The notes under the pieces: generated by a model | What the model saw: only the letters and a program-made list of their open reading frames with translations | The model's database searches: none | Told to the model about the DNA's origin: nothing | Program-made: the position numbers and the translations under genes | Part shown: positions 37,001-60,947 of the stretch, piece by piece | Numbering within the stretch: the stretch's first letter is position 1 | Layout: the number at the start of each line of letters is the position of its first letter | IMG/VR virus record: IMGVR_UViG_3300034198_015644 | Coordinates: 1 to 64,000 of that record | Length of the DNA: 64,000 bases | Source: a virus | Reading direction: 5' to 3' (one strand)

Positions 37001-38722
37001 AATAACGGTTATATTTCAGTTATTCCTTCAGGTGGAGTTCCACCTTATAATATAACTTGGTATTCTCCACCAAATGGGGCTGATGTTACAATTAATAATA
37101 CGGGCAATACCGGTAGTTTTTATGTGACAAATTTAAACCCAACATCTTTTTGTAATAATAGTGGAATAACTATTAATACAAATTCAACCACTAATTATGT
37201 CAATAATGGAGATTTTTCAAATGGGTTTTCTTATTGGACATATACAGGAATGATTTCACATGATAACACTAATAATTGTGCATTATTTGCAGGAAGGGCG
37301 GTAATTAGTCAAAATATTTCAGGAGTTATACCTTGTCCATCTTCATTTCCTTGTTATTTATTAACATTTACTCTTTCAAACTTTAATCCGGCACAAGGAT
37401 TTGTAAATCTTTTAGTTGACGGAAATTTAATTGCCACATATACTAATGGTGGAACATATACAGTTGATCTTAATAGTGTATCAATAATTTCTTTTGAAGG
37501 AGGAGGTACGACTACTAATCAGTACGTTTACACATGCTTAAGTAATGTTTCAGTACTAAGAAAAAATCAATTAGTAACAAATGCCGCACAATTTTATAAT
37601 GCATTAATTACTGATTCATCTCCGGCTAGCTGTCCAAATAGCGTTAATATAATTGTAGATATAAGTGTGGCTTGTCAATTAAGTATAAGTGCAAATACAA
37701 TTGACGATTATTGTACAAATATTGTTGGTAATAAATTAGGTAGCGGATCAATTACTTGGGGACCTTTATCTCCATTAGGCGTACCACCATTTACATACAT
37801 TTTAGATAGTACAGATGTTAATTTCCATTATACGGGAGTTACAAGTGATAGAGAAAAAACAATTGAAGGGTTATTGGGGGGAACTTGTCCAGGATTTACA
37901 TATACTGCAACTTGTATTGATAGTTGTGGATTTTCTGCGACATTAGTTACTGAACTTTATAAATGTGATGGATTAAAAAGTGGAAATACATTTTTCAATA
38001 GTTGGGTCAGAACAATTACTAACGCAATTTCAGGTACAGTGATAAGTACTGTGTCATCAACCACTAGACCTCATAAATTTGAATTTCCTAGCAATGGATT
38101 CTTTGGTTCACCAGGTTATAATTGGTATTACGTAGATTTTGTAGGTTGTTCAGGAACATATGAATTAACTGATTGTGCAAATATTGGTCAAGATGGATAT
38201 TGGGGTTGGATTGGAACTAGCACAAGTAACTCATTTGCAACTAGGGCAATTAACAATTGTTTTGCAGTAAACGGTAATGATAGTAATGGAAGTATTTATG
38301 ATAATAGTTATGTATTTGGTTCAAATTATAATACCAATGGAAGTGGTAATGTACAGGCACATATTGATCTTAGTCACTTCCATATTTTAGGTTCAGTAAC
38401 ACCAGGAAATCCTGCTCGATTAAGTTTTTGGGATAGAGGAATGGGATTAGATATTACAAGAACTAGTATTGTTGGTACAGATTACGATGAAATAATTATT
38501 AATTATTATAGTTATACCCCTAATGGCGGACCTTGTGGTGATTTAATTAAATTAAATGATGTGATAACAGGTACTATATGTAGAAATGCTGATTATATTT
38601 TCCACACTGTATTTTTTAATAATGATCTTGAATCTTGTCAAATATCAATATCATCACCTGATTGTTCAGATAAAGCAATAACTGTAGTCCATACTTATAG
38701 TACTACCGCAAGCTCACCTTAA
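34085..38722 (+). CDS. Large Cys-rich baseplate/tail structural protein with SprB-like repeats and a carbohydrate-binding-like insert
   Basis: YGVIVGRV..NNGVGVPNAKISIFIP...TNNSGDYIIFGVP.G N-terminal domain; long hydrophobic stretch; GTPPYKYQW...GLSAGTYTVVVYD SprB-like units; NYVNNGDFSNGFSYW. Confidence 0.65.
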   Translation: MSVSDSNNNIRIRTTPLGSDRYVKINLNQNFDFLEILSLKIGQQDVYRKYCSDYGVIVGRVICNNGVGVPNAKISIFIPISDEDQENPKIRAIYPFTNVNDLNSLGVRYNLLPETPLVDDICYTEIGSFPEKRRILDCEPWCEIYGKYYKYTTTTNNSGDYIIFGVPTGLQTVHMDVDLSDIGYLSQKPYDMIHQGSSPDLFESYNKFKQSTILSQLPQIKTQNKTINVAPFWGNLDQCEVGINRVDFDLQYKIDTTAFFIGSIFGDSEKNSVNKSCRPRKNLGRLDQLVTGPGTIKMIRRTPFGGTESFSLKGDQLIDNDGTWVVQLPMNLDYKITDEFGNLIDSGSPEQGIATSAKYRFMITMNDYGAGQARLRARANYLVPNYGDYSFDDTTPDFITSGPTASRPNFAELKWNGVYTVRQFISRYSNRNESTCKDNNFIGIKDVTANGNNNLFPYNRADANTNPLYIILCLILVLISYIVAVVNIIISAFNSFLLALANICLRIRSIGLQWCPFGFLKKFTIGCLVIDLCDRKYAPSCKTPKPGQQIDDNTESGFRECIQASLAEALGIFSFYFTNDWINGALFAFLFKIKFKKKRSPKFCKANEPNGSNQFIKDQVCVNDGRLVDCADVVYSTRQGVIKYVDSILYYAATIENTILFPTDIYDLGSMKNCDYYGRPKTAVFLPPTTFNLPDLEEDPNDAYQDGEKGIDDLLLEFDCLGVKENATQCVNLARICELYVDPDYIDPEPIDINSIDDEDDREVRINLECLNSGQCNLSIANNDGGFGSDWNKYRTTYVVGTNTPYSKRYVYSTRSFSESTRNSLQQQQLVNNSFYFYFGLKAGSTAIDKLKSKYFAPCERKEPCPISISAIIKNNECPNGATGELTAIAENGTPPYKYQWFAGNYQGNSLDVPLCSVPSTTCDHITGLSAGTYTVVVYDNVGQICKKTFSVADPTPFFVSVDYSQYICPNSNNGYISVIPSGGVPPYNITWYSPPNGADVTINNTGNTGSFYVTNLNPTSFCNNSGITINTNSTTNYVNNGDFSNGFSYWTYTGMISHDNTNNCALFAGRAVISQNISGVIPCPSSFPCYLLTFTLSNFNPAQGFVNLLVDGNLIATYTNGGTYTVDLNSVSIISFEGGGTTTNQYVYTCLSNVSVLRKNQLVTNAAQFYNALITDSSPASCPNSVNIIVDISVACQLSISANTIDDYCTNIVGNKLGSGSITWGPLSPLGVPPFTYILDSTDVNFHYTGVTSDREKTIEGLLGGTCPGFTYTATCIDSCGFSATLVTELYKCDGLKSGNTFFNSWVRTITNAISGTVISTVSSTTRPHKFEFPSNGFFGSPGYNWYYVDFVGCSGTYELTDCANIGQDGYWGWIGTSTSNSFATRAINNCFAVNGNDSNGSIYDNSYVFGSNYNTNGSGNVQAHIDLSHFHILGSVTPGNPARLSFWDRGMGLDITRTSIVGTDYDEIIINYYSYTPNGGPCGDLIKLNDVITGTICRNADYIFHTVFFNNDLESCQISISSPDCSDKAITVVHTYSTTASSP

Positions 38723-46197: not shown

Positions 46198-46557
46198 ATG
46201 GAAATACATAAACTTCGTTGGCCACTTAATGAATGTCCCATTCCCGTTAAATTTAAAACACAAAAACCTATAATTTATCCGATCATAGAAAATTTTTATG
46301 AATTACCCGATGAACAAAAAAATGTTTTATTAGAAATAAAAAAGATAATAAATTTTTATTTACCCGATGCGAAGTTATTTTTATTTGGTTCTAGAATAAA
46401 AGGTAATTGGGATGAAAATAGTGATTATGACATAATGGTTGAAACTAAAGAAAATGGCGAAAAAAATAAAATTTTAAAAAAATACGATTTTGGGGTAAAA
46501 GTAGACATTTGTTTTACCCAAAAATACGAAGCACTAAAAAAAATTGAAATTACTTAA
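46198..46557 (+). CDS. Minimal nucleotidyltransferase (Pol-beta superfamily, MNT-like)
   Basis: LFLFGSRIKG.W...SDYDIMV...KVDI signature. Confidence 0.85.
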   Translation: MEIHKLRWPLNECPIPVKFKTQKPIIYPIIENFYELPDEQKNVLLEIKKIINFYLPDAKLFLFGSRIKGNWDENSDYDIMVETKENGEKNKILKKYDFGVKVDICFTQKYEALKKIEIT

Positions 46558-46618: not shown

Positions 46619-49600
46619 ATGGCGTTCCCAATATTAAGAGATCCTGAAGTAATACATTTATTTGTAGATAAGTTCCCAACTTTATTGAGTGGTCCGTCTA
46701 GTGCAATTACAGAATTTTATAGTTTTTGTGTAAAAAATGGAGTAAATGAACTTTCATTATATGACACATTAAGTGTTTTACCAAGTTCAACAAACTCAGT
46801 TAGTAATTTTATTTATAGTGCAAAAACTTTTAATTACGTATGTGAAGTTGGCGGAACCGTAAATCCTTATGATCCTGCAACATTAGGATTAAAATATTTA
46901 AACTTAATTACTACCTACAATAATGGACAACCAAATCTATCAAGAAAATACGATAGGATAACTATTGAGAATGAATTTTGGAACTTAGAGACAAGTATTA
47001 ATCCATTAAAAAATACTGCAGGATTTACCATATCAACAATTGCGGGAAATACTGTGGCATCCATAGCAGGGGGAATACCCTCATCAATTTTTGTTGTGGG
47101 AAATATGGTTAAAGTTTTTGGTGAATATAGACAAGTCTTAGCAATTGGGGCGACAACAATAACTGTTGATAGAGGATTTACTAATACAGTAACAAATCAA
47201 ACTTTTGAAATTAGAGATAATAAAGTTTCGGGGGCAGAAACATATGCAATTGATTTTGAAACATATTTGTTGCGTTTAAAAAATATTAGAAATGTTGCAG
47301 TTGCAAATAATTTAAAAATAGATGCATATCTTTCAAGAAGAGTAACACAAGTACAATTTTTAAAATTAATTCCATTTATTGACAGAATTTTAATTGAGGC
47401 AGATTACGATCAAAATAATTATTTACTATATAACGACCCAACACAATTAAATAAAATACGAGATGTTTTAATTAGATGTAGTCAAAATAGAACAGGTACT
47501 GTCAATATCAATGTTGGTAACAATAATATGCAAGGTATTGGGACTGACTTTACCAATGAGTTGGGAGTTGGTACAAAGATTTACGTTAGTGGACAAGTTT
47601 TTACAATACAATCTATTGTAAGCTCAACGCAGGCAACTTTATTGGAAACTAACAATAGTAGTACAATTAATAATGCAACTTTTAAAACTTATACAGAATT
47701 TGCCCCAATATTCTATATCAACAAGACATTAAGAAAAACTTGGTTAACCACACCTGTTAGTACTAAAAGTTATGCTGATGTTTTTAAAATGTTTACACTT
47801 AGTGGTTATACAGTAGGAGGATCAGTACAATCAGGTAGTAACCCAATTTGTTATAATTTGGAAGACAACCCATCAATAACTGGTGCGACTAATTTGATTG
47901 GCATATCAATATTTGATAGAACTGAGGCACAATCTATAGACATAAAAGTTGCACAATCTTCTTCACCAAGATCAAGTTGTACCAATCCTTTGGCTAGATC
48001 TATTGGTGCTAACAATACTTATGCAATAACTTTTCAAGGAAATGATTGTACCTGTGATAATGCGACAAATGGATCAGTAACTGCGAATTTTAGTACAATA
48101 CAACCTACCCCATACAACTATACATTTACAAATGGTGGTAGAGTAATTGAGATTACAAATTTAACTACACCACCACCATATACGTTTAGTGGTCTAGGTT
48201 TAGGTACTTGGAACATATCAGTAAGAGATGGTAATAATAGTGTTTCAACAGGTAGTGTCACAATAAATGAATCATTTCAACCAACCATTACAGGTAATTA
48301 TATAAGTGCAGGTCAAGGCGGAATTACAGTATTCTATACGGGAGGTTATAACAACTACTATATTTCAAGAATAGATAACCCAACAAATATAAACAATCAA
48401 TGGGGACCTTTTATTTCATATCACAATGCAGGTAGTGATCCATTTTTTGATTCTAACATAACAGTTAATAATACAACAAAATCATATAATTCATCATCTA
48501 CTCCTGCGTATAATTTTGTACCAAATCAAAGTTATAGTTTTGTTATTGGAGATACAGATGCATGTATTAAAATTTTTACTGTAACAATACCTCAAGCGTC
48601 AACGGGACCTTCAGTAAATATTACTCAAACTACCAATCCATCTTGTGATGCAGCATCAAACGGTTCTATAACTATGGTTGCAGCAGGCACAGGACCTTAC
48701 GTATTTCATGTAACATATCCAAATGGAAATACAAGTAACATAAATAGTGTGAGTACTACACAAGTATTAAATAATTTATCGGCAGGAAATTACTCAGTAA
48801 CAGTAACAGATGCAAATAATGTTACATCTACCCCTGCGGTTACTACAACTTTAACTAATACATATAATTCAAATATAAATGCAACTAGTACATCACCTAA
48901 TCAAGTGTGTTTTCAATTAGTCGCAGGATCAACATATACTATAACATCAGGAGGGGGAACATTCCAATCATTTAATCAAACAGTAAGTGGACCTAACTTT
49001 ACCCCATGTTTTAATAATTTACCAGGAGGACAATATAACTTTAATGTTTTATCTTCTAATGGTTGTTCAGAAACAATTTATTTAACAGTTAATAGTGCAA
49101 CATTAACATTATCATTAAATCAATACGAAAATCCAAGTTGTACACAAGTTAATGATGGAATTATTAATGTATTTGCGACAAGTAATGGTAATGGACAATT
49201 TTCTTATTCCGCATCAAATGGTAGTGTAATTTATAGCAACAATAGTGGTAATTTTACTAATTTGAGTGCCGGTACTTGGACATTATCAGTTAGTCAAAAT
49301 GGAATTTTGGGGAATAATATTGTAGTGCAATTAAATAATTCATTTTATGTTAATGTGACTAGTACAGGTGAAACTGTATGTGTTAGTGCGAGTGGTGGTT
49401 CATTAGGTATTTATACTGTAGATATTAACGGTACGTTACACACCTATAACACCGCATCCACAATAAATTGTTATACTGGTCTTTGTTCGGGAAATGTTGT
49501 CAGAGTTGTTGATGGTGACATTATAAACACTTCAATATCAGGTTGTGTATACACCACAACAACACCTAAAGATTGTGCATTTAATTTTAACGTCACTGCT

Positions 49601-52600
49601 AATACAATTACTTGTGGCGACTACGGATCAATAATAGCTAGGGCGGATGGTGGAGTTACTCCATATATTTATACTGCCACAGGTAATGGTACGTACACGA
49701 ATACTACAGGTAATTTTAATGTTTTACCATCAGGTATATGGACAATAACAGTAGAGGATAACATTGGTAACTCAGGAACTACGACAGTTAATTTAGATAG
49801 TAAACTTAAATTTAGTGCCGACAGTAGCGCTCTTAGTGCAACATGTGTTACCATTATAGATGGTTTAGCACCTTACTATATTTTAATAAATCAAATATTA
49901 TATACTGCCTCTACACAAGGAACTTATTGTTTTGATTTAGAATGTGGTTATAATGGTATTGATGTATATGATAGTTGTACAGGAACTACTTGTGCAAATT
50001 ATTTATTTACTGCTCCGGGTGGAATACAAAGTTTTTTTCAAAATATATTTTGGACTAATTGTAGTGGAATGACACAAAGTGGAATTTTAAATTCAATTAG
50101 CCCTATCATAGGTAATACTTTTAGTACCTGTGCAATTTTTGGAACTCCTGTTACTACAAATTCTAAAATAGAAATAAGTCTAATAGGTTTTTGTCCACCC
50201 GGCACAAATCAAGATTGCGTGGTTGATAATAGTGTGATTGTGTATTATGATTGTCCGGGACCATTAAGTTTAGAACAAACTCAAGATAGTGTCAATCCTA
50301 GCTGTACTGATAGTAGTGATGGTGAGATATACTTTAGTGGTTTTGGTGGGGACTATCCCTATGTTAGTTATTCAGCAATAAATGGTAATACCATATATGT
50401 TAATGGTACAGGTACATTTTCAAATTTAAGTGCAGGTACTTGGACGATTTATGTTGAAGATAGTTCAAACACTATAACATCAACAACTGTAACATTAGTT
50501 TCAGATTTTATAGTTGATTTTACTATCACTAGTTTTACAGAAAACAGCGTGACCATTTGTGCTAATATACCAATCCAATATCAAACATTAGAATATGAAT
50601 TAACGTTTGAAAATCAAACGGCGATATTGAATGCATCTAATTCTTTTTGTAATACATTTACAGGGATAACAGGATGTAGTGTAGTTAATGTTAATTTATG
50701 TTCTTTAAGAAATTATAGAAGGCTTACTAATATTGGTGGTGGAGGTAGAAGTGTAATTAAAGGAAGTGATGGTCTTTTTTATGGGGTAACACAAATTGGT
50801 GGTTTATACAATTATGGGACTATATACAGATATAATGAAACCACTAAGGTTTATACTACATTACATAGTTTTAATGGGACTACAGATGGAAACACCCCGC
50901 AAGATATAATTGAAGTATCTAATGGAAAATTATACGGAATTTGTTTAGTCGGTGGTAATAGTGGTTATGGTACGTTGTTTAGTTGTACCACTTCAGGATC
51001 ATACGCAGTAATACATAATTTTGATGGGACGAACGGTGGAAATCCGGTTAGCAATTTAACTTTGGCTAGTAATGGTGTCATGTATGGAATGACACAATAT
51101 GATTCTACTTATGGATACGGCACTATATTTAGTTGTAGTACCATTGGAAATTTTGGGGTAGTTTATTCTTTCCAATACGTTTTTTCCATACCTTTTGATG
51201 GGTACAACCCAACAGGAAAATTAATCGAAGCATCTAATGGGTTACTTTATGGGGTCACACCACTTGGAGGTTCGAGTGACCAAGGAATTTTATTTAATTA
51301 TGATTATATAAATAATCAATATAACAATTTATTTTCTTTTGATTATGGGTCAGTCGCATATCCAAATGAAATAGTTGAAGGATTGGATAATAATTTATAT
51401 GTAATAGGTGATACATTTTCAAATAAAAGTATTTATAAATTAGATTTATCGGGAACACCAAAAGGAAATGTACATAATTTTTCATTAAGTGACGGATCAA
51501 ATGCAAATAAATTAATAAAAGGACTTAATGGTAATTTATGGGGATCAACTTTATATGGTGGTTTATATAATTTTGGTACAATATTTAGTTGTGATACTTT
51601 AGGTAATTTTGAAGTACTGTATAATTTTAAAAATTCTCTTCCAAATGACAATTTCTTATTGAATACTAACTCAACAATATTTTATGGGACAAGACAATCA
51701 AATATATTGTATAAAATAAATGTTAGTTTACCCGAATCTTGTTGTTTTGATACAACTACAAATTTAAATGATTTGTTAAAACCAAATATAATTTCTCTTT
51801 ATGGAGACTATGTTAATGGGGTGCCAAGTATTTGTACTACGATAGATATTAGTAGCTCAGTTAATGTTTGGTATACTGTAACTGTAAATGGAGAAGAAAA
51901 CATATATGATAGAAGTTTAGAACCTAATTGTTTTAGTGCGCTAACTGAGGGGTTAACAGATGTTTCTATATGTGAATATGTGGATTCATTTAACTATCTA
52001 GCAATACATTATTTTGACTCAACTAACAATACTTTTGGGACTACTCCTAATGGAGGTTTGATAGAGGCAAGTGACGGCAACTTTTATGGTATGACATTTA
52101 ACGGAGGTTCAAATGATTTTGGTGTAATTTATAGTTGTGATACTATAGGTAATTATGGTATAATATATAATTTTGGGTCTGTTTTATTTGATGGAAAATA
52201 TCCACTTGGATCTTTAATACAAGGATCAAACGGAACATTATATGGGATGACATCATCAGACAATATATTAAATTTATGTGGAGTAATTTTTAGTTGTACT
52301 ACAACAGGTAATTATGGGATAATACATAGATTTGATAATACAGTTACTAATGGCGTAACTAAAGGAAGAACACCTGAAGGTTCTTTATGCGAAGTTTCTG
52401 ATGGATTCTTATATGGGGTGACAAGATATGGAGGTTTTAATAATGGTGGGGTAATATTTAAAATTAACCCAACAACAGGACAATATTTTTCAATTTATGA
52501 ATTTGGACAAGCACCAAATGATCCATTAGAACCAATAGAAGGTGTAATAGAAGTTAACAATAAATTATATGGAATGTCTTACTTTGGAGGACAACATAAT

Positions 52601-55600
52601 TTTGGCACTATATATGAATTGGACTTAAACATAGGTGTACCTAATACTGTATTTAGTTTTGAAAATGTAACTGGTTCGGGAGATATTGGATTTTATCCTA
52701 ATGGAAAATTAACTTTAGGGTCAAACGGATTGTTATATGGACTAACAACTGGTGGAGGATTTTATGGAGTAGGGGCATTTTTTGAATTCGATCCAACTTA
52801 TCTAACCTATAGGACAATACATAGTTTTAGTGGCACCCCTATTGACGGTGAGACTGCGACAGGTACTTTATTTGAAGATGAAAATGGAGTATTTTATGGG
52901 TTAACAAAAGAAGGTGGACCTATAGGTCGAGGAACAATTTTTGCTTGTGATATATATGATAATTATAAAATTTTAAAAACTTTAAATAATTCAAACGGTA
53001 GATATCCTGAGAATACATATTTTATAAAGGCATCCGATAATAATTTATATTCTACAGTTAGTGGTGGATTACCTAATAATGGTGGTGGTATTATAAAATT
53101 AACAATTGAAACATTAACGGGTTGTTGTTATAGTGCAACTACAAATATACCACAGTGTTTAGACGGAGTGACTATTGACACATTATGGATAGATAATATG
53201 CCATATGTTAATGTATTAATTAATAGTCAAAATACTACACCTCCATATGAAGTTACGGTTGGGGGTATAACATATCCTTATTATGTTGGATCATTAACCG
53301 GAAATTGTTACCCAATAATCGGATGTGATCCAGTTATTGTAAATGTTTGTGCACCTGAGATTACTTCCCAACAATTAAGTGGATTTACAGTAGAACATAA
53401 ATTTAGTTTTTCAGATGCTTATGATGGTAAAAATCCATATGGTGATTTAACATTAAATTATAATGGAATATTTTATGGAATGACATCGCAGGGTGGTGTA
53501 AATGAGCCAGGATATTTCCCCACAGGATGCGGAACAATTTTTAGTTTTGATCCAATAACTAAGATTTATCAAAAAGTTTATGATTTAGACGCTGATAATG
53601 GAGATGGATTTTTTCCAAAAGGAACATTACAATGTGACCTAAATTATAATTTATATGGGGTTAATTATTACGATGCAGTTAGTGGTTATGGTACGTTGTT
53701 TAGTTGTACCACTTCAGGATCATACGCAGTAATACATAATTTTGACGATGTTAATGGATCAAATCCTGTTACATTACCTAGTAGAGAACCATTAACAGGA
53801 CGATTCCAAAGAGTCGGAACAACAATAAAAAGTGCAACCGGTGATGGAGTTTTATATAGTTTTGATAATGGTACACACGTGAATGATGATTTTAGCTCAA
53901 TAGGGTCTTTTGGTCGAGGCACTAATTCATATTTTAATGACCCATCTATATCTTATAATAAAGGAATAAATTCAAACGGACCCTTATTAGTTGATCAAGA
54001 GTTATCATTAATATATTTCGGATCAACTCAAGCATTTGTTTACGGCATGACAAAAGAAGGGGGAACAAACAATAATGGTGTTATTTTTGCTTATGACTTT
54101 TTTGTCTATGGTTTATACGATATTTATAATTTTACAGGCGGAGCGGACGGAGGAAAACCAACAGGAGGTTTAATTAAGTATAGTTATGGGTTATATAATA
54201 AAGTTTATGGAATGACTTCAGAAGGTGGTGCAGGTTTTGGTGTCATATTTGAGATGGATTTATCAATTTTTGGTTCACCTGTAAATACAATTTTACATAC
54301 ATTTGCGGGAGGAACTTCTGATGGATCTAGACCATATGGTTCATTATACGAATTTAATGGTCGACTTTATGGTATGACATATTATGGAGGAACGAATAAT
54401 GCCGGTGTAATATTCTCATTAGACCCAAGACTTCCTTATCCACACGACTATACAATCATTCATAGCTTTAATGGAAGTACGGGAGGATCAAATCCTGTAG
54501 GTTCATTGACAATGGGCCCTGATGGTAAATTATATGGTATGACATTGTATGGCGGTAATGGAGTAGGTGTAGGAGGTAAAGGTATAATATTTAGTATTGA
54601 TTTTAATTTAACTCAAAGAGCGGCATGTTGTTATCAAACAACCATAGACGTAAATGATCCTAACGATATAAATTTACCTCTTATTGAGGGAACTTGGTTT
54701 AATTCACAACCAACAATTTCTGTGAGCATTGACCCAAATAATTATTATGTCGCTCCTTATACTGTAACTATTGATGGAGTTACATATAACTATGACACAA
54801 ATAGTGCTAAAAATTATTTCCCACAATTAAGTTGTGGTACACATACAGTAGTCATTACACCAAATGCGGGAAACAATACACTTGACTTTTCGGGTTTAAA
54901 ATCGTTTAGTGGACCAACAATTGATCCGGGTTCATTATTTGGTAATCCAATTGAACCAATCACCAACGAATTTTATGCCTTATCTTATGCGGGTGGAGCA
55001 TTAAATTTTGGTACAATTTTTAAGATTGATTTGTTAGGTAATGTTGAGATACTTCATAATTTTTCAGGATCAACTTATGGTGATGGAAACCACCCAATAC
55101 AAGATTTAATTTTATCGTCAAATGGAAAAATGTACGGTACAACCTCGGAAGGCGGAATATATAATGCGGGTACAATATTTAGTTGTGATACTTTAGGTAA
55201 TTATGGTATAGTTTATAATTTTTCTGGTGGCACAAATGGAGGTGGACCGATTCAAAATTTAACAGAAGTTTCTAATGGTATTTTTTATGGATTAGTGTAT
55301 CAAACCGGTGCATTTGGTATGGGTATTATTTTTAGTTGTGATACAATAGGAAATTATAAATTGATTCATAGTTTTAGTGGGTCACCTTATGATGGGATGC
55401 AACCTTTAGAAAGTTTTTATAAACATTCAAATGGTATTTTATATGGTACTACATTTAATGGGGGTACTTATAATGCGGGAACAATTTTTAGTTGTGACAC
55501 TTTAGGTAATTATGGTATAATTCATAGTTTTAATAATACAGTGATTCCCAATAACGGATGCAACCCAAGATGTACGTTAATTGAGGGAGATAATGGTATT

Positions 55601-58600
55601 TTATATGGTACTACATCAAATGGTGGAAATATAGGTTCATATGGGACAATTTTTACTTGTAGTACATCAGGAAATTATGGAGTAATACATAAATTTACAG
55701 GTGTAGATGGTGACGGACCACAAGAAGGTCTTTTTAAAGGTCAAAGTAATATTTTTTATGGGACTACTTATGGTGGTGGGATTCATAATTTGGGTACAAT
55801 TTATAGTTGTGATACTTTAGGTAATCATGGGGTAATTTACAATTTTAATGGTTCAGGTTCAACCGGATCTTTACCGTATAATGGATTATATGTGGCAGAA
55901 AATGATATTTTATACGGTTTCACTCAGTACGGCGGAATTTATTCGGCGGGAAATTTTTATAGATTTAATCCATATAATTTTCTATATGGAGATTGTCCTT
56001 ATTCGGGTACTGTTAACATACCATGTTTTTATTTAGATGAATTAAATGTGGAAGTTCCATGTACAACAAACGATGGTCAAATATCAGTTCAGGCATTGGG
56101 AGGTAATCCTGATTACACATATACTTTGACATATACTAGTATAACAAATGATACATACAGTATAACACAATTTGGTACCACATTTCAACCAATAACGTTT
56201 ATCAATTTAAGTGCATTAACATGGGGATTAATTGTCACAGATTCTAGTGGACAAACGTTAAGTCAAATTTATGATTTTAATCCAATCGATAACCCATCTA
56301 TCACTACAGTTAATGGTGATACTATTTGTATTAGTTTAGATCAAGTGGGATTATCATTAACAGGTATTACATTAGATGGTAATATACTATATAGTGGGAA
56401 TATAGGTCTAACTAATTTTTGTTTTACTGCAGGTTGTGGTAACCATTTGGCCCAATTTTATACTACCAATGGATGTATGTACCCCATTCCCTTTTCTTTT
56501 GATTGCCCACCAAGTAATTTAGTCTTCACAAATTTAAGTCAGATAGATCCTTTTTGTTGTAACTCTTCTGCAAAAATTAATGTGGCAGTAACAGGCGGTA
56601 CATTGCCATATACGTATACTATATATAATATACCAACTACCGCGACTTATACTAATACTACGGGTAATTTTACAAACATATACCCACCTACAGGAACTTG
56701 GCAAGTAATTGCAACGGATGCAAATGGTAGCACGATAAGTAGTAATATTTTTACATTAAATTCAATATTTTTTGCTGATATTACATTTATTAATAATATC
56801 GCAGTTATTAATTTTAGTGGATCTACTGGAATAGATGTACTAATAAATGGAGTTTCACAAACTTTAGGTTATATTGCAACTAAAGTAAGTGGGGGAACTT
56901 TAAGTTATCCAATACCTTGTGGAACTAATATTAATGTTGAAGTTATTGGTAGAATAGTTATAAATCCTATAACTAAAACTTATGAATATTGTCCTATAAG
57001 TGCAAGTACATTTTATCCTTGTCCTTTATTTTGTAGTAATATAATTAGTCAACCAAGATGTCCAGGACAAAACGCTAATTCTGTTACAGTCTTAGTAACA
57101 GGCGGAACACCAAACTACAATATAACATTAACTAATGGTACGTTAATTTATACTGCTAACACATCACTAAATAGTTATATTTTTAACGATAACCCACCTT
57201 TAGTCACTTTAATACAAGATGATTGGACAATAACTGTTATAGATTCTGATGGTACAGTTTGTATACAAGATATAACTATACAATCTAGTTTTGATGCAAC
57301 AATAACAGGTACGTCAACGGGGGCATGTTTTACGGTAGTTGGGGGAAATCCACCATATACACTTTATATTGATGGCGTGATTTATACACCATTAATAAAT
57401 CAAATAAGTAATGATATTGTTTATTGCGTACCACTAAATTGCGGTAATCATCAATTAGAAATAAGAGAAACAGGAGTACCACCAGCGGCATGTTCAATAG
57501 TTTTAGATTACTTTAGTTCCTGTCAATTGACTTGTAGTACAATAACTACAGATCCCGGTTGTAATGATAATTGTAGTGGATCAGTTACGATAAGTGTAAC
57601 TGGTGGAACACCACCATACAACTATAGTTTAATTAGAACCTCACCATCGTTTTATCAAACGACATATACGGGTCCACAAACTACTTGGACTTTCTATGAT
57701 CTATGCGAAGGGACTTATGATATTACAGTATCGGCGTTAACTAATGGTGCGTTTTGTACATCTAATTTGAATCTAGCATCAATATATGATGTAGTAGTTA
57801 GTGGATATGCAGTTTCAACTAACTGTCTATATGGTGTAATGTGTATTGACATTACGGGAGGAACACCACCTTATGATGTATATATTGATGGAATACTAAG
57901 AGCAACTGCAATTACTCAAACACATAGTTGTTATAGTGCAACTTGTGGTGTAAATCATACTTATCAGGTAATTGATTCTGCACCTCCTTGTAATATACCA
58001 TTAAATCAGGCATTACTTAAAAATACAAGTTTTACAGGGACTAGTGATTGGATATTGACTAATGATTATACTGGTAGTACTATAATATCGGGAGGTAGTG
58101 CAATAGTATCTTCTACGACATATAATACTTTACAAGTATTTAGATTTTTACAAGATTATATTTTCCCGTTCCAAAAACCAATATCAATAAAATATAATGT
58201 CAGTGTTAGTACAGGGACAATTCAAAATTACAATTATTTACCACAATTTAGGATACAAAGTCCTTTTGGTAGTACTAATATGGGTGGAATTGCACCTAAT
58301 TCGACATATTCTACAACAAAACAGATAGTAAGTACGGTAGAACCTGTAATTTTCTCAGGTTTTGGTATTAATTTTTATCAATCGTTCCTACCTAATAATA
58401 AAACTGAGGTAAAAGACATGCAATTGACATTATTGTCTTATACTGTAGATTGTAGATGTTCGGCTAGCGGAACTACATATGTACCTTGCAACCCACCATT
58501 AACATTAAATGTTGTTTCTTATACAGAACCAAATTGTTTCAGTGCTTGTAATGGAACTATCATCGTTTCTGCAACCGGAGGAGTACTCCCATATAGTTAC

Positions 58601-58924
58601 TCAGCAACTAATGGAACGTCAATTTACATAAGCCCTAACGGGGTATTTAACGATCTTTGTGAAGATACTTGGGACTTGTCGGTTAGTGATAGTTGTAATA
58701 CAGTTGTTACAAACGCAGGATTCTTCTTACCAAACTCATTCCATGTAACAGTGGATACGTATCCTACAGAGTTTTGTGTGGGAATAACAGGAGGAACACC
58801 ACCTTACCATGTTTTCATAGATAATGTAGAAATTGATACCATTAGTCAAAGTCCGGTTAATATTTGTTATAGCGCAAGTTGTGGGGTAACCACAATTATA
58901 CGTGTGGTGGATAGCTCTACTTAA
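46619..58924 (+). CDS. Giant (4101 aa) Cys-rich tail fibre/adhesin: GH-like N-terminal domain, SprB-like stalk modules, four GloVer (TIGR03803-like) repeat beta-propellers
   Basis: NPSC...GGTPPY.Y...NLSAGTW stalk repeats; repeated L..A.NG.LYG.T..GG..N.GTIF in four blocks at about 50710-51725, 51990-53105, 53380-54605, 54880-55975. Confidence 0.75.
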   Translation: MAFPILRDPEVIHLFVDKFPTLLSGPSSAITEFYSFCVKNGVNELSLYDTLSVLPSSTNSVSNFIYSAKTFNYVCEVGGTVNPYDPATLGLKYLNLITTYNNGQPNLSRKYDRITIENEFWNLETSINPLKNTAGFTISTIAGNTVASIAGGIPSSIFVVGNMVKVFGEYRQVLAIGATTITVDRGFTNTVTNQTFEIRDNKVSGAETYAIDFETYLLRLKNIRNVAVANNLKIDAYLSRRVTQVQFLKLIPFIDRILIEADYDQNNYLLYNDPTQLNKIRDVLIRCSQNRTGTVNINVGNNNMQGIGTDFTNELGVGTKIYVSGQVFTIQSIVSSTQATLLETNNSSTINNATFKTYTEFAPIFYINKTLRKTWLTTPVSTKSYADVFKMFTLSGYTVGGSVQSGSNPICYNLEDNPSITGATNLIGISIFDRTEAQSIDIKVAQSSSPRSSCTNPLARSIGANNTYAITFQGNDCTCDNATNGSVTANFSTIQPTPYNYTFTNGGRVIEITNLTTPPPYTFSGLGLGTWNISVRDGNNSVSTGSVTINESFQPTITGNYISAGQGGITVFYTGGYNNYYISRIDNPTNINNQWGPFISYHNAGSDPFFDSNITVNNTTKSYNSSSTPAYNFVPNQSYSFVIGDTDACIKIFTVTIPQASTGPSVNITQTTNPSCDAASNGSITMVAAGTGPYVFHVTYPNGNTSNINSVSTTQVLNNLSAGNYSVTVTDANNVTSTPAVTTTLTNTYNSNINATSTSPNQVCFQLVAGSTYTITSGGGTFQSFNQTVSGPNFTPCFNNLPGGQYNFNVLSSNGCSETIYLTVNSATLTLSLNQYENPSCTQVNDGIINVFATSNGNGQFSYSASNGSVIYSNNSGNFTNLSAGTWTLSVSQNGILGNNIVVQLNNSFYVNVTSTGETVCVSASGGSLGIYTVDINGTLHTYNTASTINCYTGLCSGNVVRVVDGDIINTSISGCVYTTTTPKDCAFNFNVTANTITCGDYGSIIARADGGVTPYIYTATGNGTYTNTTGNFNVLPSGIWTITVEDNIGNSGTTTVNLDSKLKFSADSSALSATCVTIIDGLAPYYILINQILYTASTQGTYCFDLECGYNGIDVYDSCTGTTCANYLFTAPGGIQSFFQNIFWTNCSGMTQSGILNSISPIIGNTFSTCAIFGTPVTTNSKIEISLIGFCPPGTNQDCVVDNSVIVYYDCPGPLSLEQTQDSVNPSCTDSSDGEIYFSGFGGDYPYVSYSAINGNTIYVNGTGTFSNLSAGTWTIYVEDSSNTITSTTVTLVSDFIVDFTITSFTENSVTICANIPIQYQTLEYELTFENQTAILNASNSFCNTFTGITGCSVVNVNLCSLRNYRRLTNIGGGGRSVIKGSDGLFYGVTQIGGLYNYGTIYRYNETTKVYTTLHSFNGTTDGNTPQDIIEVSNGKLYGICLVGGNSGYGTLFSCTTSGSYAVIHNFDGTNGGNPVSNLTLASNGVMYGMTQYDSTYGYGTIFSCSTIGNFGVVYSFQYVFSIPFDGYNPTGKLIEASNGLLYGVTPLGGSSDQGILFNYDYINNQYNNLFSFDYGSVAYPNEIVEGLDNNLYVIGDTFSNKSIYKLDLSGTPKGNVHNFSLSDGSNANKLIKGLNGNLWGSTLYGGLYNFGTIFSCDTLGNFEVLYNFKNSLPNDNFLLNTNSTIFYGTRQSNILYKINVSLPESCCFDTTTNLNDLLKPNIISLYGDYVNGVPSICTTIDISSSVNVWYTVTVNGEENIYDRSLEPNCFSALTEGLTDVSICEYVDSFNYLAIHYFDSTNNTFGTTPNGGLIEASDGNFYGMTFNGGSNDFGVIYSCDTIGNYGIIYNFGSVLFDGKYPLGSLIQGSNGTLYGMTSSDNILNLCGVIFSCTTTGNYGIIHRFDNTVTNGVTKGRTPEGSLCEVSDGFLYGVTRYGGFNNGGVIFKINPTTGQYFSIYEFGQAPNDPLEPIEGVIEVNNKLYGMSYFGGQHNFGTIYELDLNIGVPNTVFSFENVTGSGDIGFYPNGKLTLGSNGLLYGLTTGGGFYGVGAFFEFDPTYLTYRTIHSFSGTPIDGETATGTLFEDENGVFYGLTKEGGPIGRGTIFACDIYDNYKILKTLNNSNGRYPENTYFIKASDNNLYSTVSGGLPNNGGGIIKLTIETLTGCCYSATTNIPQCLDGVTIDTLWIDNMPYVNVLINSQNTTPPYEVTVGGITYPYYVGSLTGNCYPIIGCDPVIVNVCAPEITSQQLSGFTVEHKFSFSDAYDGKNPYGDLTLNYNGIFYGMTSQGGVNEPGYFPTGCGTIFSFDPITKIYQKVYDLDADNGDGFFPKGTLQCDLNYNLYGVNYYDAVSGYGTLFSCTTSGSYAVIHNFDDVNGSNPVTLPSREPLTGRFQRVGTTIKSATGDGVLYSFDNGTHVNDDFSSIGSFGRGTNSYFNDPSISYNKGINSNGPLLVDQELSLIYFGSTQAFVYGMTKEGGTNNNGVIFAYDFFVYGLYDIYNFTGGADGGKPTGGLIKYSYGLYNKVYGMTSEGGAGFGVIFEMDLSIFGSPVNTILHTFAGGTSDGSRPYGSLYEFNGRLYGMTYYGGTNNAGVIFSLDPRLPYPHDYTIIHSFNGSTGGSNPVGSLTMGPDGKLYGMTLYGGNGVGVGGKGIIFSIDFNLTQRAACCYQTTIDVNDPNDINLPLIEGTWFNSQPTISVSIDPNNYYVAPYTVTIDGVTYNYDTNSAKNYFPQLSCGTHTVVITPNAGNNTLDFSGLKSFSGPTIDPGSLFGNPIEPITNEFYALSYAGGALNFGTIFKIDLLGNVEILHNFSGSTYGDGNHPIQDLILSSNGKMYGTTSEGGIYNAGTIFSCDTLGNYGIVYNFSGGTNGGGPIQNLTEVSNGIFYGLVYQTGAFGMGIIFSCDTIGNYKLIHSFSGSPYDGMQPLESFYKHSNGILYGTTFNGGTYNAGTIFSCDTLGNYGIIHSFNNTVIPNNGCNPRCTLIEGDNGILYGTTSNGGNIGSYGTIFTCSTSGNYGVIHKFTGVDGDGPQEGLFKGQSNIFYGTTYGGGIHNLGTIYSCDTLGNHGVIYNFNGSGSTGSLPYNGLYVAENDILYGFTQYGGIYSAGNFYRFNPYNFLYGDCPYSGTVNIPCFYLDELNVEVPCTTNDGQISVQALGGNPDYTYTLTYTSITNDTYSITQFGTTFQPITFINLSALTWGLIVTDSSGQTLSQIYDFNPIDNPSITTVNGDTICISLDQVGLSLTGITLDGNILYSGNIGLTNFCFTAGCGNHLAQFYTTNGCMYPIPFSFDCPPSNLVFTNLSQIDPFCCNSSAKINVAVTGGTLPYTYTIYNIPTTATYTNTTGNFTNIYPPTGTWQVIATDANGSTISSNIFTLNSIFFADITFINNIAVINFSGSTGIDVLINGVSQTLGYIATKVSGGTLSYPIPCGTNINVEVIGRIVINPITKTYEYCPISASTFYPCPLFCSNIISQPRCPGQNANSVTVLVTGGTPNYNITLTNGTLIYTANTSLNSYIFNDNPPLVTLIQDDWTITVIDSDGTVCIQDITIQSSFDATITGTSTGACFTVVGGNPPYTLYIDGVIYTPLINQISNDIVYCVPLNCGNHQLEIRETGVPPAACSIVLDYFSSCQLTCSTITTDPGCNDNCSGSVTISVTGGTPPYNYSLIRTSPSFYQTTYTGPQTTWTFYDLCEGTYDITVSALTNGAFCTSNLNLASIYDVVVSGYAVSTNCLYGVMCIDITGGTPPYDVYIDGILRATAITQTHSCYSATCGVNHTYQVIDSAPPCNIPLNQALLKNTSFTGTSDWILTNDYTGSTIISGGSAIVSSTTYNTLQVFRFLQDYIFPFQKPISIKYNVSVSTGTIQNYNYLPQFRIQSPFGSTNMGGIAPNSTYSTTKQIVSTVEPVIFSGFGINFYQSFLPNNKTEVKDMQLTLLSYTVDCRCSASGTTYVPCNPPLTLNVVSYTEPNCFSACNGTIIVSATGGVLPYSYSATNGTSIYISPNGVFNDLCEDTWDLSVSDSCNTVVTNAGFFLPNSFHVTVDTYPTEFCVGITGGTPPYHVFIDNVEIDTISQSPVNICYSASCGVTTIIRVVDSST
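50959..51024 (+). repeat. 66-bp exact direct repeat, copy 1 (copy 2 at 53680-53745)
   Basis: TAGTGGTTATGGTACGTTGTTTAGTTGTACCACTTCAGGATCATACGCAGTAATACATAATTTTGA at both positions. Confidence 0.9.
53680..53745 (+). repeat. 66-bp exact direct repeat, copy 2
   Basis: Identical to 50959-51024. Confidence 0.9.
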
Positions 58925-59066: not shown

Positions 59067-60947
59067 ATGCCTATTCCAGCACCATATAATCCTAAAAATT
59101 TACATTTATGGGTTGATAATGTTACTAGTTTGTTAACTAACAGTACCAATTTTTTCCAATTAATTGATAATAACTGTATTAACACATTCACTATGTATCA
59201 AATACCTACGATAACTTCGCAGGTACAATCTTTGGGAAATTTTATATGTGAGGCAAAAACAAATCATGGAGTCTGTAGTGTGGCAGGAATTATAAACCCA
59301 TACGATTGGACTCCTCCTCCGGCCGGTACAAGAAACGTTCAATCTATTGTCAATTACAATAATAACCCAATTACACAGGCAAATTCATGTCGTAGAATTG
59401 ATTATCTCACAATTGAGAGTGAGTTTTGGAATATAGACGATCCCGCAATAAATCCTGTAGTTTCTAATGGTTGTACCATAAATATAGCTGCTAACTCATC
59501 AACAGGTACAGTTTCAGGTTGTTTAGGAGGAGTAACCGCAGGTATGATAATAAAAGTTTCTGTTGGGGCGACTTTTGTTTATAGACAAATAATTGGTATT
59601 AGTGGTAATATTGTAACATTTGATAGAGTTTTTGATCCAATTAACGCGTACTTAGCTGCACCATTTACAGTAATTAACAACCAAACCTTCTATGGAATTG
59701 ATTTTGAAACACTATTATATAGGATAAAATATAATATACGACCTATGGCAATTGCAAATAACTTATTGCCATTAGAAATATATGTTTCAAGAGCTTTAAC
59801 CAGCGATCAATTTGAAAGACTAATACCACACGTTGATAGATTATTAATTGAGGTAGATTATAATCAATTAAGTTATCCTAGATACAACGATAACGATGTA
59901 ACTAATCCCTCATGGTCAACTAACACTATTAAAAACGCTCTAAGTCTTTGTAGCGTCATTAGAACGGGTACAATTTCAATTGCACAAAATAGTAATATTG
60001 TAACAGGTAGTGGAACTTTATTTACAAGAGATTTGGGTGAACAATCACAAATAATTGTAAATGGAAACCAAATTTATACAATTGCCACAATAATTTCAGA
60101 TACTCAGGCAACAATTGTTGGTACTTCCCCAATCAATATAACTGCAGGTAGCACATACGCATCTTATTTTGATTACATGCCAATTTTTTATACATTACCA
60201 GCTGGGGCATTTGGTACTCCTCTTAGGAGACAATGGATGTTAAACCCTTCACCAAAAAGTTATGCGGATGTATATAGATTCCATTCTCAAAACGCCTATA
60301 CTGCAGGTGGATCAATACAGGTAGGAAATACCCCTATTGCATTTAACAACGAAACAGATCCATATATTGTTGATTCAGTTTCATTAGTTGGTTTATCGTT
60401 ATTTGTTTGGTCTTCTGTTAGTAATTTATCTCCTGTTGCACCACCAGATTATCCTTGTCCACCTTGTAGTGGAGAAACCATAATAGGGTGCGAGGTTACC
60501 GCAATCACAACCTCAAATTGTTTAATCGCAACATATACTAATCCAGCTTGTGATGGTGTTTGTGATGGCACTATAAGTGCGTCTACAACATATGGAATTG
60601 CGCCATTTACTTATTATATAACAGGAATAACTAATTCAATAACTTATGTAAGTAGTACAGGTTTTTTCAGCGGATTATGTGAAGACACTTATATTTTATG
60701 TGTTACAGATTCTGCATCAAATACCGAATGTTATTATCAAAATATAGAATTAGTAAATACATTTTATGCATCTATAAATTCATTTTTAAATGGTTTTTGT
60801 GTTACAATAAGTGGAGGTACAGGAATTTATTATGTATACAAGGATAATCAAGTTTTGCCTTGGGATTATAATAATACTACAAATTGTTATAGTGCGGATT
60901 GTTCCACACTTTCAGTAATAACAGTAAGAGATACTAGCACATTATAA
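59067..60947 (+). CDS. Fibre subunit paralogous to the N-terminus of the giant protein, plus one stalk unit
   Basis: Shared HLWVD/HLFVD, INPYD/VNPYD, TIESEFWN/TIENEFWN, IDFET, DRLLIEVDY/DRILIEADY, KSYADV motifs. Confidence 0.8.
   Translation: MPIPAPYNPKNLHLWVDNVTSLLTNSTNFFQLIDNNCINTFTMYQIPTITSQVQSLGNFICEAKTNHGVCSVAGIINPYDWTPPPAGTRNVQSIVNYNNNPITQANSCRRIDYLTIESEFWNIDDPAINPVVSNGCTINIAANSSTGTVSGCLGGVTAGMIIKVSVGATFVYRQIIGISGNIVTFDRVFDPINAYLAAPFTVINNQTFYGIDFETLLYRIKYNIRPMAIANNLLPLEIYVSRALTSDQFERLIPHVDRLLIEVDYNQLSYPRYNDNDVTNPSWSTNTIKNALSLCSVIRTGTISIAQNSNIVTGSGTLFTRDLGEQSQIIVNGNQIYTIATIISDTQATIVGTSPINITAGSTYASYFDYMPIFYTLPAGAFGTPLRRQWMLNPSPKSYADVYRFHSQNAYTAGGSIQVGNTPIAFNNETDPYIVDSVSLVGLSLFVWSSVSNLSPVAPPDYPCPPCSGETIIGCEVTAITTSNCLIATYTNPACDGVCDGTISASTTYGIAPFTYYITGITNSITYVSSTGFFSGLCEDTYILCVTDSASNTECYYQNIELVNTFYASINSFLNGFCVTISGGTGIYYVYKDNQVLPWDYNNTTNCYSADCSTLSVITVRDTSTL

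What the first reader, a model, noticed from the sequence alone, without database searches (positions are those of the whole stretch)
49800..58500. One fixed loop acts as a socket for interchangeable cargo domains
Seen: unrelated domains are inserted at the same place in module B, between its penultimate strand and the closing Cys strand. They are four roughly 340-410-aa GloVer-repeat blocks (closing at ESCC, TGCC, AACC, GDCP), a small Cys-rich domain (CANYLFTAPGG...GFCPPG, about 49980-50205) and a jelly-roll/CBM-like domain (LLKNTSFTGTSDW, about 57990-58450). Other B modules have only a short loop. Inference: a plug-in display scaffold hanging many receptor-binding heads off one stalk, unlike trimeric fibres with a single distal tip.
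Basis: partly seen in the sequence, partly recalled or inferred. Interest (0 to 1): 0.75.

Follow-up and report, generated by a model that had tools for sequence, protein, structure and literature searches.

The report
Phage fibre with domains nested in stalk
A 4101-residue fibre protein of an uncultured large phage has six complete domains (four seven-bladed propellers, a sugar-binding-type module and a small cysteine-rich domain) spliced into the last hairpin of its stalk modules. This is the phage counterpart of the 'split domains' already described in bacterial RTX adhesins.

Summary
**Observation: confirmed.** The region lies in one ORF (46619-58924, +, 4101 aa) within a phage tail and baseplate block.
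- The stalk is a chain of about 80-aa SprB/FN3-like modules of two homologous subtypes, A and B.
- Six B modules are interrupted after their sixth (F) strand. The seventh strand, a conserved C-x9-C strand, follows the insert.

**Inserts**
- Four GloVer blocks. The one modelled is a seven-bladed beta-propeller (Z 25-29).
- One CBM-like jelly roll (Z 10-11).
- One roughly 80-aa Cys-rich domain.

**Evidence that they are nested**
- Relatives have empty sockets at the same residues. One shows a single clean 341-aa gap.
- An extra Cys just before the insert co-varies with an extra Cys just after it (24 of 25 propeller sockets, Fisher p 5e-6).
- Splicing out the insert restores the match to the profile of uninterrupted B modules.
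- In the AlphaFold2 model, two-FN3 PDB chains align over module A, the B core and the strand after the CBM.
- For the propellers, 3D strand pairing could not be read, because the tool returns no coordinates.

**Interpretation: largely supported, but not unprecedented.** RTX-adhesin split domains and 'evolved Dit' CBM insertions use the same principle. Binding function, a monomeric state and the contrast with trimeric fibres are untested. The scan has not found this architecture on other DNA.

**Verdict:** new variant of a known kind.

The parts
46619..58924 (+). Giant fibre ORF, 4101 aa (P0001), stop codon included
   Evidence: homologues of 2949-4153 aa in metagenomes
46619..48019 (+). N-terminal domain of about 467 aa, shared with the next ORF (59067-60947); no family match
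49805..49975 (+). B4 core, strands A-F (aa 1063-1119)
   Evidence: B-core HMM
49976..50215 (+). Cys-rich insert (aa 1120-1199); fold not determined and inner boundary uncertain
   Evidence: absent from homologue P0005
50216..50254 (+). B4 closing (G) strand, C-x11-C (aa 1200-1212)
50504..50713 (+). B5 core (aa 1296-1365), divergent and missed by the HMM
   Evidence: pairwise alignment to P0002
50714..51736 (+). GloVer block 1 (aa 1366-1706), about 7 repeats; exactly the 341-aa gap relative to P0002
51737..51775 (+). B5 closing strand, starting with a Cys pair (aa 1707-1719)
51776..51979 (+). B6 core (aa 1720-1787)
51980..53119 (+). GloVer block 2 (aa 1788-2167), 7 repeats
53120..53161 (+). B6 closing strand, Cys pair then C-x9-C (aa 2168-2181)
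53162..53356 (+). B7 core (aa 2182-2246)
53357..54622 (+). GloVer block 3 (aa 2247-2668), about 7 repeats with an internal expansion
54623..54664 (+). B7 closing strand, starting with a Cys pair (aa 2669-2682)
54665..54865 (+). B8 core (aa 2683-2749); six beta-strands in the AF2 model
54866..55990 (+). GloVer block 4 (aa 2750-3124); seven-bladed beta-propeller in the AF2 model
   Evidence: pLDDT 78.7; Z 25-29, about 280-350 residues aligned, model range about 73-440
55991..56026 (+). B8 closing strand, C-x9-C (aa 3125-3136); beta-strand at model residues 446-452, outside the propeller match
   Evidence: both Cys invariant in 7 homologues
56282..56509 (+). B9, an uninterrupted B module with a 3-aa hairpin (aa 3222-3297)
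57287..57523 (+). B11, an uninterrupted B module (aa 3557-3635)
57779..57991 (+). B12 core, ending with the upstream neck Cys (aa 3721-3791)
57992..58450 (+). CBM-like beta-jelly-roll insert (aa 3792-3944)
   Evidence: pLDDT 86.5; CBM4/16/22/29/61-type chains, Z 9.3-11, rmsd about 3 A, about 130 aligned, model range 161-307
58451..58489 (+). B12 closing strand: downstream neck Cys plus C-x9-C (aa 3945-3957)
   Evidence: two-FN3 chains align through model residues 322-324; orthologous strand directly follows the F strand in P0061
58736..58921 (+). Terminal B13 (aa 4040-4101), which ends after the F strand with no closing strand

Best explanation
The ORF encodes a giant fibre or adhesin of an uncultured large contractile-tailed phage. 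Its stalk is a chain of about 80-residue FN3/Ig-like SprB-type modules in which A and B subtypes mostly alternate. In six B modules the F-G hairpin is replaced by a whole independently folding domain whose N- and C-termini adjoin. After the insert the chain returns to lay down the G strand (C-x9-C) and then continues into the next module. An extra Cys on each side of most inserts probably forms a disulfide across the neck. By FN3 topology the cargo should project sideways from the stalk. One polypeptide would then display four seven-bladed GloVer propellers, one CBM-like module and one Cys-rich domain along its length, probably as adhesion heads for host surface glycans or proteins. Cargo is gained, lost and exchanged between relatives at the same hairpin. 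Shown here: module homology, insert positions, empty sockets in relatives, Cys covariation, and the predicted folds of two cargo types. Inferred: the disulfide, lateral projection, the binding function, and attachment to the baseplate.
For: Phage context:
- Tail sheath, baseplate wedge and tail-fibre PHROGs lie on the same strand.
- The record is an IMG/VR virus contig of 106 kb, estimated 32% complete.

Modules:
- SprB PF13573 and GloVer TIGR03803 both score above their cut-offs.
- A and B profiles merge on iteration.
- A modules match FN3 domains at Z 9.2-9.7 with rmsd 2.0-2.6 A.

Position of inserts:
- 47 of 116 B modules in 16 family proteins have more than 45 aa after the B-core match, HMM-scored as B-type.
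- The few large gaps after A modules were inspected in P0001 and hold divergent B cores.

Empty sockets:
- P0002 against P0001 gives one clean 341-aa gap.
- P0061 has the orthologous closing strand four residues after the F strand, where P0001 has the CBM.
- P0005 lacks the Cys-rich insert.

Other cargo:
- P0011 has inserts that look vWA-like by motif at the same place, with PF00092 precomputed for that protein.
- P0006 and P0056 carry a roughly 775-aa GloVer block of about 13 repeats.

Statistics:
- Splice test.
- Cys covariation: 9 of 9 and 15 of 16, Fisher p 4.9e-6. The single exception is a Cys pair in the next module.

Structure:
- Model 1 has pLDDT 86.5, with the closing strand at 88-93.
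- Seven two-FN3 PDB chains align 152-161 residues over model range 1/2 to 322/324, so they skip the CBM. Two of them have rmsd 3.2-3.5 A.
- Model 2 places the propeller at residues 73-440 (Z up to 29.1). Six strands come before it and one beta-strand after it.
Against: - No coordinates or PAE are returned, so F-G pairing in the propeller unit and the neck disulfide were not seen directly.
- Five of the seven two-FN3 alignments have rmsd 7-10 A, and a range gives only the first and last aligned residue.
- C-x9-C strands also precede A modules that have no B core upstream, in the 626-aa and 4829-aa neighbours. The 855-aa protein P0066 shows the same, though it may be truncated.
- The terminal B module lacks the strand in 6 of 7 homologues; P0003 continues past this point. 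It still folds at pLDDT 82-91, so the strand is not indispensable for the fold.
- The propeller model rests on a 6-row alignment (pLDDT 78.7).
- No evidence on ligand, oligomeric state or position on the virion.
- Orthologues are not independent, so the Fisher p value is optimistic.
Confidence: 0.72

Rival explanations
1. Beads on a string. The cargo domains lie in series between complete six-stranded modules. The C-x9-C strand is a linker or the first strand of the next module, not part of the interrupted one.
For: C-x9-C strands precede A modules without an upstream B core in the 626-aa and 4829-aa neighbours and in P0066. The terminal B modules lack the strand and are still modelled confidently. 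Pairing in the propeller model could not be inspected.
Against: After GloVer blocks 1-3 the strand is followed by a B module, not an A module. The empty-socket orthologues place the strand directly after the F strand. Cys residues co-vary across about 400 aa. The splice test favours the true strand. Two-FN3 chains align through the strand while skipping the CBM.
Confidence: 0.1
2. The architecture is nested as described, but some or all cargo are enzymes such as glycan depolymerases or lyases, rather than passive binding heads.
For: The two best propeller matches are enzymes: CylK (Z 29.1) and virginiamycin B lyase (Z 29.0, rmsd 2.5 A, 293 of 293 residues).
Against: Identity is only 14-15%, and integrin and WD40 propellers score almost as well. 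Bacterial GloVer proteins are annotated only as surface repeat proteins with no enzyme family. The other two cargo types identified by fold or motif, CBM-like and vWA-like, are classical binding domains.
Confidence: 0.15
3. The protein is not a host-recognition tail fibre. It is a decoration or whisker that tethers virions to mucus, particles or non-host surfaces, in the manner of Hoc.
For: It is built of Ig/FN3-like tandem modules, as Hoc-type decorations are. A Hoc-like 1545-aa protein lies upstream at 34085-38722. No trimerisation motif was noticed.
Against: It sits after the baseplate-wedge and tail-fibre-like genes and is followed by two paralogous fibre genes.
Confidence: 0.15

Closest known systems
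Split domains of bacterial RTX adhesins (AhLap, FrhA, MpIBP; PMC12077191, PMC10865825)
   Same: An Ig-like beta-sandwich stalk module is interrupted by a complete ligand-binding domain whose termini adjoin, and the chain returns to finish the sandwich. There are several such units per megaprotein. Cargo includes a CBM and a vWFA domain. The stated role is to project the cargo away from the fibre axis.
   Different: Those are bacterial type-1-secreted adhesins with Ca-bound extender domains and RTX rolls. In the solved AhLap unit the cargo leaves after the first strand, whereas here it leaves before the last strand. Here the modules are phage-encoded and SprB/FN3-like, the neck is Cys-flanked, the main cargo is the GloVer propeller, and no RTX family is detected.
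'Evolved Dit' and other CBM decorations of lactic-acid-bacteria siphophages (PMC7291167, PMC6669499)
   Same: A phage adhesion device in which CBMs are inserted into loops of a structural beta-sandwich (galectin) domain and add host-glycan binding.
   Different: Dit is a hexameric baseplate hub carrying one or two CBMs. It is not a long tandem-module fibre with six nested domains of three kinds.
SprB-type gliding adhesins of Bacteroidota (PF13573)
   Same: The same repeat family. The nearest bacterial relatives are Saprospiraceae, Flavobacteriaceae and Carboxylicivirga proteins at 23-27% identity.
   Different: In 160 other SprB-repeat proteins, mostly bacterial, with 3995 module junctions, only 6 junctions looked interrupted. 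Most of these were alignment artefacts, and one (P0028) matches the neighbouring phage gene's E-F insert. No T9SS C-terminal domain is present here.
Integrin alpha I domain
   Same: Another well-known nested domain: a vWA domain inserted in a loop of a seven-bladed propeller. The GloVer block matches integrin alpha propellers at Z 26-28.
   Different: The roles are reversed: here the propeller is the guest and an FN3-like module is the host. There is no sequence relationship.

Membership tests
SprB repeat (Pfam PF13573) | Match to the family HMM above the gathering score | tested here: met
   72.7 bits against a cut-off of 28, with 6 stretches
GloVer repeat protein (NCBIfam TIGR03803) | Tandem repeats of about 50 aa matching the HMM above the cut-off | tested here: met
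   691.7 bits against a cut-off of 44, with 24 stretches; about 7 repeats per block
Seven-bladed beta-propeller fold | Closed ring of seven four-stranded blades | tested here: met
   AF2 model with pLDDT 78.7. VIA Z 25-29 to seven-bladed propellers, with 280-349 residues aligned over model range 73-440. This is a prediction, not a solved structure.
FN3/Ig-like beta-sandwich | Seven-strand sandwich of about 80-90 aa | tested here: met
   A module: Z 9.2-9.7, rmsd 2.0-2.6 A, 73-83 residues aligned to FN3 domains. Tandem FN3 chains align over A plus B.
Carbohydrate-binding module (CBM4/16/22/29/61-like) | Beta-jelly-roll fold | tested here: met
   Z 9.3-11, rmsd about 3 A, 121-139 residues aligned, model range 161-307
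Carbohydrate-binding module (CBM4/16/22/29/61-like) | Sequence membership of a CAZy or Pfam CBM family, and demonstrated glycan binding | tested here: inconclusive
   No Pfam CBM family at E <= 1. Binding cannot be tested with these tools.
RTX adhesin | RTX nonapeptide beta-roll, type 1 secretion signal, and BIg extender repeats | tested here: not met
   No RTX or BIg family in the Pfam scan of the whole protein. The gene lies in a phage tail block. The protein works like an RTX adhesin split domain but is not a member of that family.
Split-domain architecture (nested ligand-binding domain in an Ig-like module) | The host domain is completed by chain segments on both sides of the guest domain | tested here: met
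   For the CBM unit: two-FN3 alignments run to model residues 322-324, and P0061 has an empty socket. For the propeller units: sequence evidence only, plus a beta-strand after the propeller. 3D pairing was not inspected.
Trimeric phage tail fibre | Homotrimeric shaft with a single distal receptor-binding tip | not testable with these tools
   Oligomeric state was not addressed. No match to any of 50,697 GenBank phage records.

The most novel reading that the evidence does not exclude
The F-G hairpin of the B module is an evolvable cassette site. Phages of this lineage change or broaden host range by inserting, deleting and swapping whole binding domains at a disulfide-stapled socket. One monomeric fibre would then carry a string of laterally displayed, independently evolving receptor-binding heads. 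That is a polyvalent mode of host recognition distinct from trimeric tip-binding fibres and from branched multi-tailspike systems.
Probability: 0.35. Interest if true: 0.75.

Novelty: new variant of a known kind. Interest (0 to 1): 0.55.

Why it matters
- It extends the split-domain principle of bacterial RTX adhesins to a phage fibre and to a different host module, an SprB/FN3-like module opened at the F-G hairpin.
- It gives what appears to be the first fold assignment for the widespread but unstudied GloVer repeat: a predicted seven-bladed propeller. No paper mentions the repeat and no solved structure is related in sequence.
- It provides a simple rule for finding candidate receptor-binding domains in giant phage fibres: look for a B core whose G strand is displaced.
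- Natural empty and filled sockets among relatives offer ready-made constructs for binding and host-range experiments in laboratory Bacteroidota-phage systems.
- The scaffold could also serve as a display framework.

Tried and rejected
Homologues could be used only as whole proteins.
- The search for related loci found nothing in viral contigs or metagenome contigs, and a degenerate DNA pattern scan also found nothing. Genome contigs gave only remote bacterial SprB proteins.
- Alignment A3, a short query against whole giant homologues, came out scrambled and was not used. A4 misaligned the closing strands and was replaced by the clean 6-row A5.
- No PDB sequence relative of the GloVer block was found.
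- No Pfam family was found for the Cys-rich insert, the CBM insert, the GloVer block or the N-terminal domain.
- The ESM Atlas gave no usable hit for the Cys-rich insert.
- Neither the N-terminal domain nor the C-terminal unit matched any GenBank phage.
- Literature searches for TIGR03803/GloVer and for SprB repeats in phage fibres found nothing relevant.
- I considered using model pTM or DSSP to prove strand pairing. I rejected this as not decisive.
- I checked whether nested cargo is common in bacterial SprB proteins. It is not, in a sample of 160 proteins.
Full report
**Locus and context.** The finding lies inside a single ORF, 46619-58924 on the + strand, of 4101 aa.
- The window has about 30% G+C, and all long ORFs are on one strand.
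- It encodes a tail sheath, a baseplate-wedge protein, tail-fibre-like proteins, and T4-type replication and nucleotide genes.
- The record is an IMG/VR virus contig of 106,489 bp, estimated 32% complete. This points to a large contractile-tailed phage.
- The ORF is followed by a 626-aa paralogue with the same N-terminal domain and by a 4829-aa fibre gene.

**Modules.** Pfam finds SprB repeats (72.7 bits), and NCBIfam finds GloVer TIGR03803 (691.7 bits, 24 stretches).
On iteration the two profiles converged on the same segments. A and B are therefore subtypes of one fold of about 80 aa.
- In an AlphaFold2 model of aa 3634-4101 (14-row alignment, mean pLDDT 86.5), the A module matches FN3 domains at Z 9.2-9.7 with rmsd 2.0-2.6 A.
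- An uninterrupted B module runs through six strands, then a tight hairpin of 3-12 aa, then a seventh strand bracketed by two Cys (C-x9-C). Those Cys are invariant in seven full-length homologues.

**The inserts.** Using first-iteration HMMs (the B profile ends at the F strand), I mapped modules in 16 family proteins.
- In P0001 four B cores are followed by GloVer blocks of 341-422 aa, one by an 80-aa Cys-rich segment and one by a 153-aa segment. Each insert is followed by a closing strand.
- Across the family, 47 of 116 B modules have more than 45 aa after the core match.
- The few large gaps after A modules were inspected in P0001. They hold divergent B cores, for example aa 1296-1365, which was placed by pairwise alignment.
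- Each GloVer block has about seven repeats.

**Nested or in series: four lines of evidence.**

1. *Natural empty sockets.*
   - P0001 aa 1296-1790 aligns to homologue P0002 with one clean gap of exactly 341 aa. In P0002 the F strand, a 5-aa loop and the closing strand are contiguous.
   - Homologue P0061 lacks the CBM-like insert. It has the clearly orthologous closing strand four residues after the F strand.
   - P0005 lacks the Cys-rich insert.
2. *Splice test.* I built a profile from 56 uninterrupted B modules.
   - Adding the true 20 residues that precede the next module to an interrupted core raises the score by 6.1 bits on average.
   - Decoy 20-mers from the insert change it by -0.3 bits.
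   - The true segment beats all 100 decoys in 27 of 45 modules. Most failures are modules followed by a B module, where the fixed window misses the strand.
3. *Cys covariation across the insert.* This was counted in 25 propeller-bearing sockets.
   - A Cys right after the F strand is present if and only if the closing strand begins with a Cys pair. The counts are 9 of 9 and 15 of 16, Fisher p 4.9e-6.
   - The single exception is a Cys pair in the next module.
   - Orthologous sockets differ in state, so this is not one inherited event. Even so, the p value is optimistic.
   - The CBM socket behaves the same way: every CBM-bearing socket listed has an extra Cys on each side. In the full-length homologues all of these Cys are invariant. 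The empty P0061 socket has neither.
   - This pattern fits a disulfide across the neck of the socket.
4. *Structure.*
   - In model 1, CBM-type chains align to residues 161-307 (Z 9.3-11, rmsd about 3 A).
   - Seven different two-FN3 PDB chains align 152-161 residues over the range 1/2 to 322/324. That span is module A, the B12 core and the post-insert strand, with the CBM skipped. Two of them have rmsd 3.2-3.5 A and the other five 7-10 A.
   - The closing strand has pLDDT 88-93.
   - Model 2 covers aa 2683-3137 from a clean 6-row alignment of the window's own paralogues. It has pLDDT 78.7 and pTM 0.73.
   - It shows six strands, then a domain at residues 73-440 that matches seven-bladed propellers at Z 25-29 (CylK, virginiamycin B lyase, integrin alpha, YncE, WD40), then a beta-strand at 446-452 outside every propeller alignment.
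   - The tool returns no coordinates. I could not verify that this last strand pairs with the B8 core.

**Points against.**
- C-x9-C strands also occur before A modules that have no B core upstream, in the 626-aa and 4829-aa neighbours and in the possibly truncated P0066.
- The terminal B module ends after its F strand in 6 of 7 homologues; P0003 continues past this point. It is still modelled confidently.
- The strand is therefore not indispensable, and it may act as a general connector that completes whichever domain precedes it.
- One B module of the neighbouring gene, and its relative P0028, carry the insert one loop earlier, between the E and F strands. 'One fixed loop' holds for this protein family but not absolutely.

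**Cargo diversity.** At this hairpin, relatives carry any of the following:
- nothing;
- a propeller;
- a roughly 775-aa GloVer block of about 13 repeats (P0006, P0056);
- the CBM-like domain;
- the Cys-rich domain;
- in P0011, two inserts of about 300 aa that look vWA-like by motif, with PF00092 precomputed for that protein.

In 160 other SprB-repeat proteins, mostly bacterial, with 3995 module junctions, I found essentially no interrupted modules. The socket appears to be a speciality of this phage-fibre lineage. That lineage has no relative among 50,697 GenBank phage records.

**Mechanism (inferred).** In FN3 domains the F-G loop lies at one pole, beside the junction with the preceding domain; this is established knowledge of FN3 topology. 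A domain grafted there should project laterally. A closed propeller, a CBM-type jelly roll and a vWA domain typically have adjacent termini, which suits them to such grafting. The fibre would then display several heads along one stalk. A binding role is suggested by three things, but is not shown:
- the CBM-like fold;
- the vWA-like cargo in a relative;
- the surface-protein annotation of bacterial GloVer proteins.

**Comparison with the known.** The closest precedent is the Ig-like 'split domain' of RTX adhesins. A CBM, an RTX roll or a vWFA domain buds from it and is projected away from the fibre axis (PMC12077191; PMC10865825). 'Evolved Dit' proteins of siphophages carry CBMs in loops of a galectin domain (PMC7291167). 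The present case differs in five ways:
- the carrier is a phage;
- the host module is SprB/FN3-like;
- the site is the last hairpin;
- the neck is flanked by Cys;
- the main cargo is the GloVer propeller.

I therefore rate it a new variant of a known kind.

**Verdict.** The structural interpretation is supported strongly for the CBM unit. For the propellers it rests on sequence evidence and on a model that fits the nested reading. The functional interpretation is plausible but untested.

Noticed in passing
window 58736-58921 and 60759-60944; homologues P0002, P0004-P0007: The terminal B module of both the 4101-aa and the 626-aa proteins stops right after the F strand, leaving an odd number of conserved Cys. 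This holds in 6 of 7 homologues. P0003 instead continues into a Cys-rich extension of about 290 aa. AF2 still folds the six-stranded module at pLDDT 82-91.
   Followed up: partly
L012 (G000:C1:60900-76000), gene from locus position 50, 4829 aa: The next gene is a second giant fibre. It has an N-terminal GloVer block, further interrupted B modules, a long run of A-type SprB modules, an internal domain sharing a short motif with the N-terminal domain of P0001, and a C-terminal GloVer region. One B module (aa about 1008-1232) has its insert between the E and F strands, not between F and G.
   Followed up: partly
window 50927-51050 and 53648-53771: A 124-nt stretch is 79% identical between blade 2 of GloVer block 1 and blade 2 of block 3, with an identical 19-aa peptide. 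That is much more alike than the blocks are overall and suggests gene conversion between propellers.
   Followed up: partly
window 46619-48019 and 59067-60470: The N-terminal domain of about 470 aa is shared by the 4101-aa and 626-aa proteins. It has no Pfam, PHROG or GenBank-phage match. It is conserved in all full-length homologues and is probably the virion-attachment or enzymatic end.
   Followed up: no
P0003 aa 3866-4153 and window 49976-50215: The C-terminal extension of homologue P0003 looks like several tandem copies of a small Cys-rich unit resembling the Cys-rich insert of B4. The same mini-domain may therefore occur both nested and in series.
   Followed up: no
window 46198-46557: A 119-aa ORF lies between the collagen-like tail-fibre gene and the giant fibre gene. 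It has no PHROG match.
   Followed up: no
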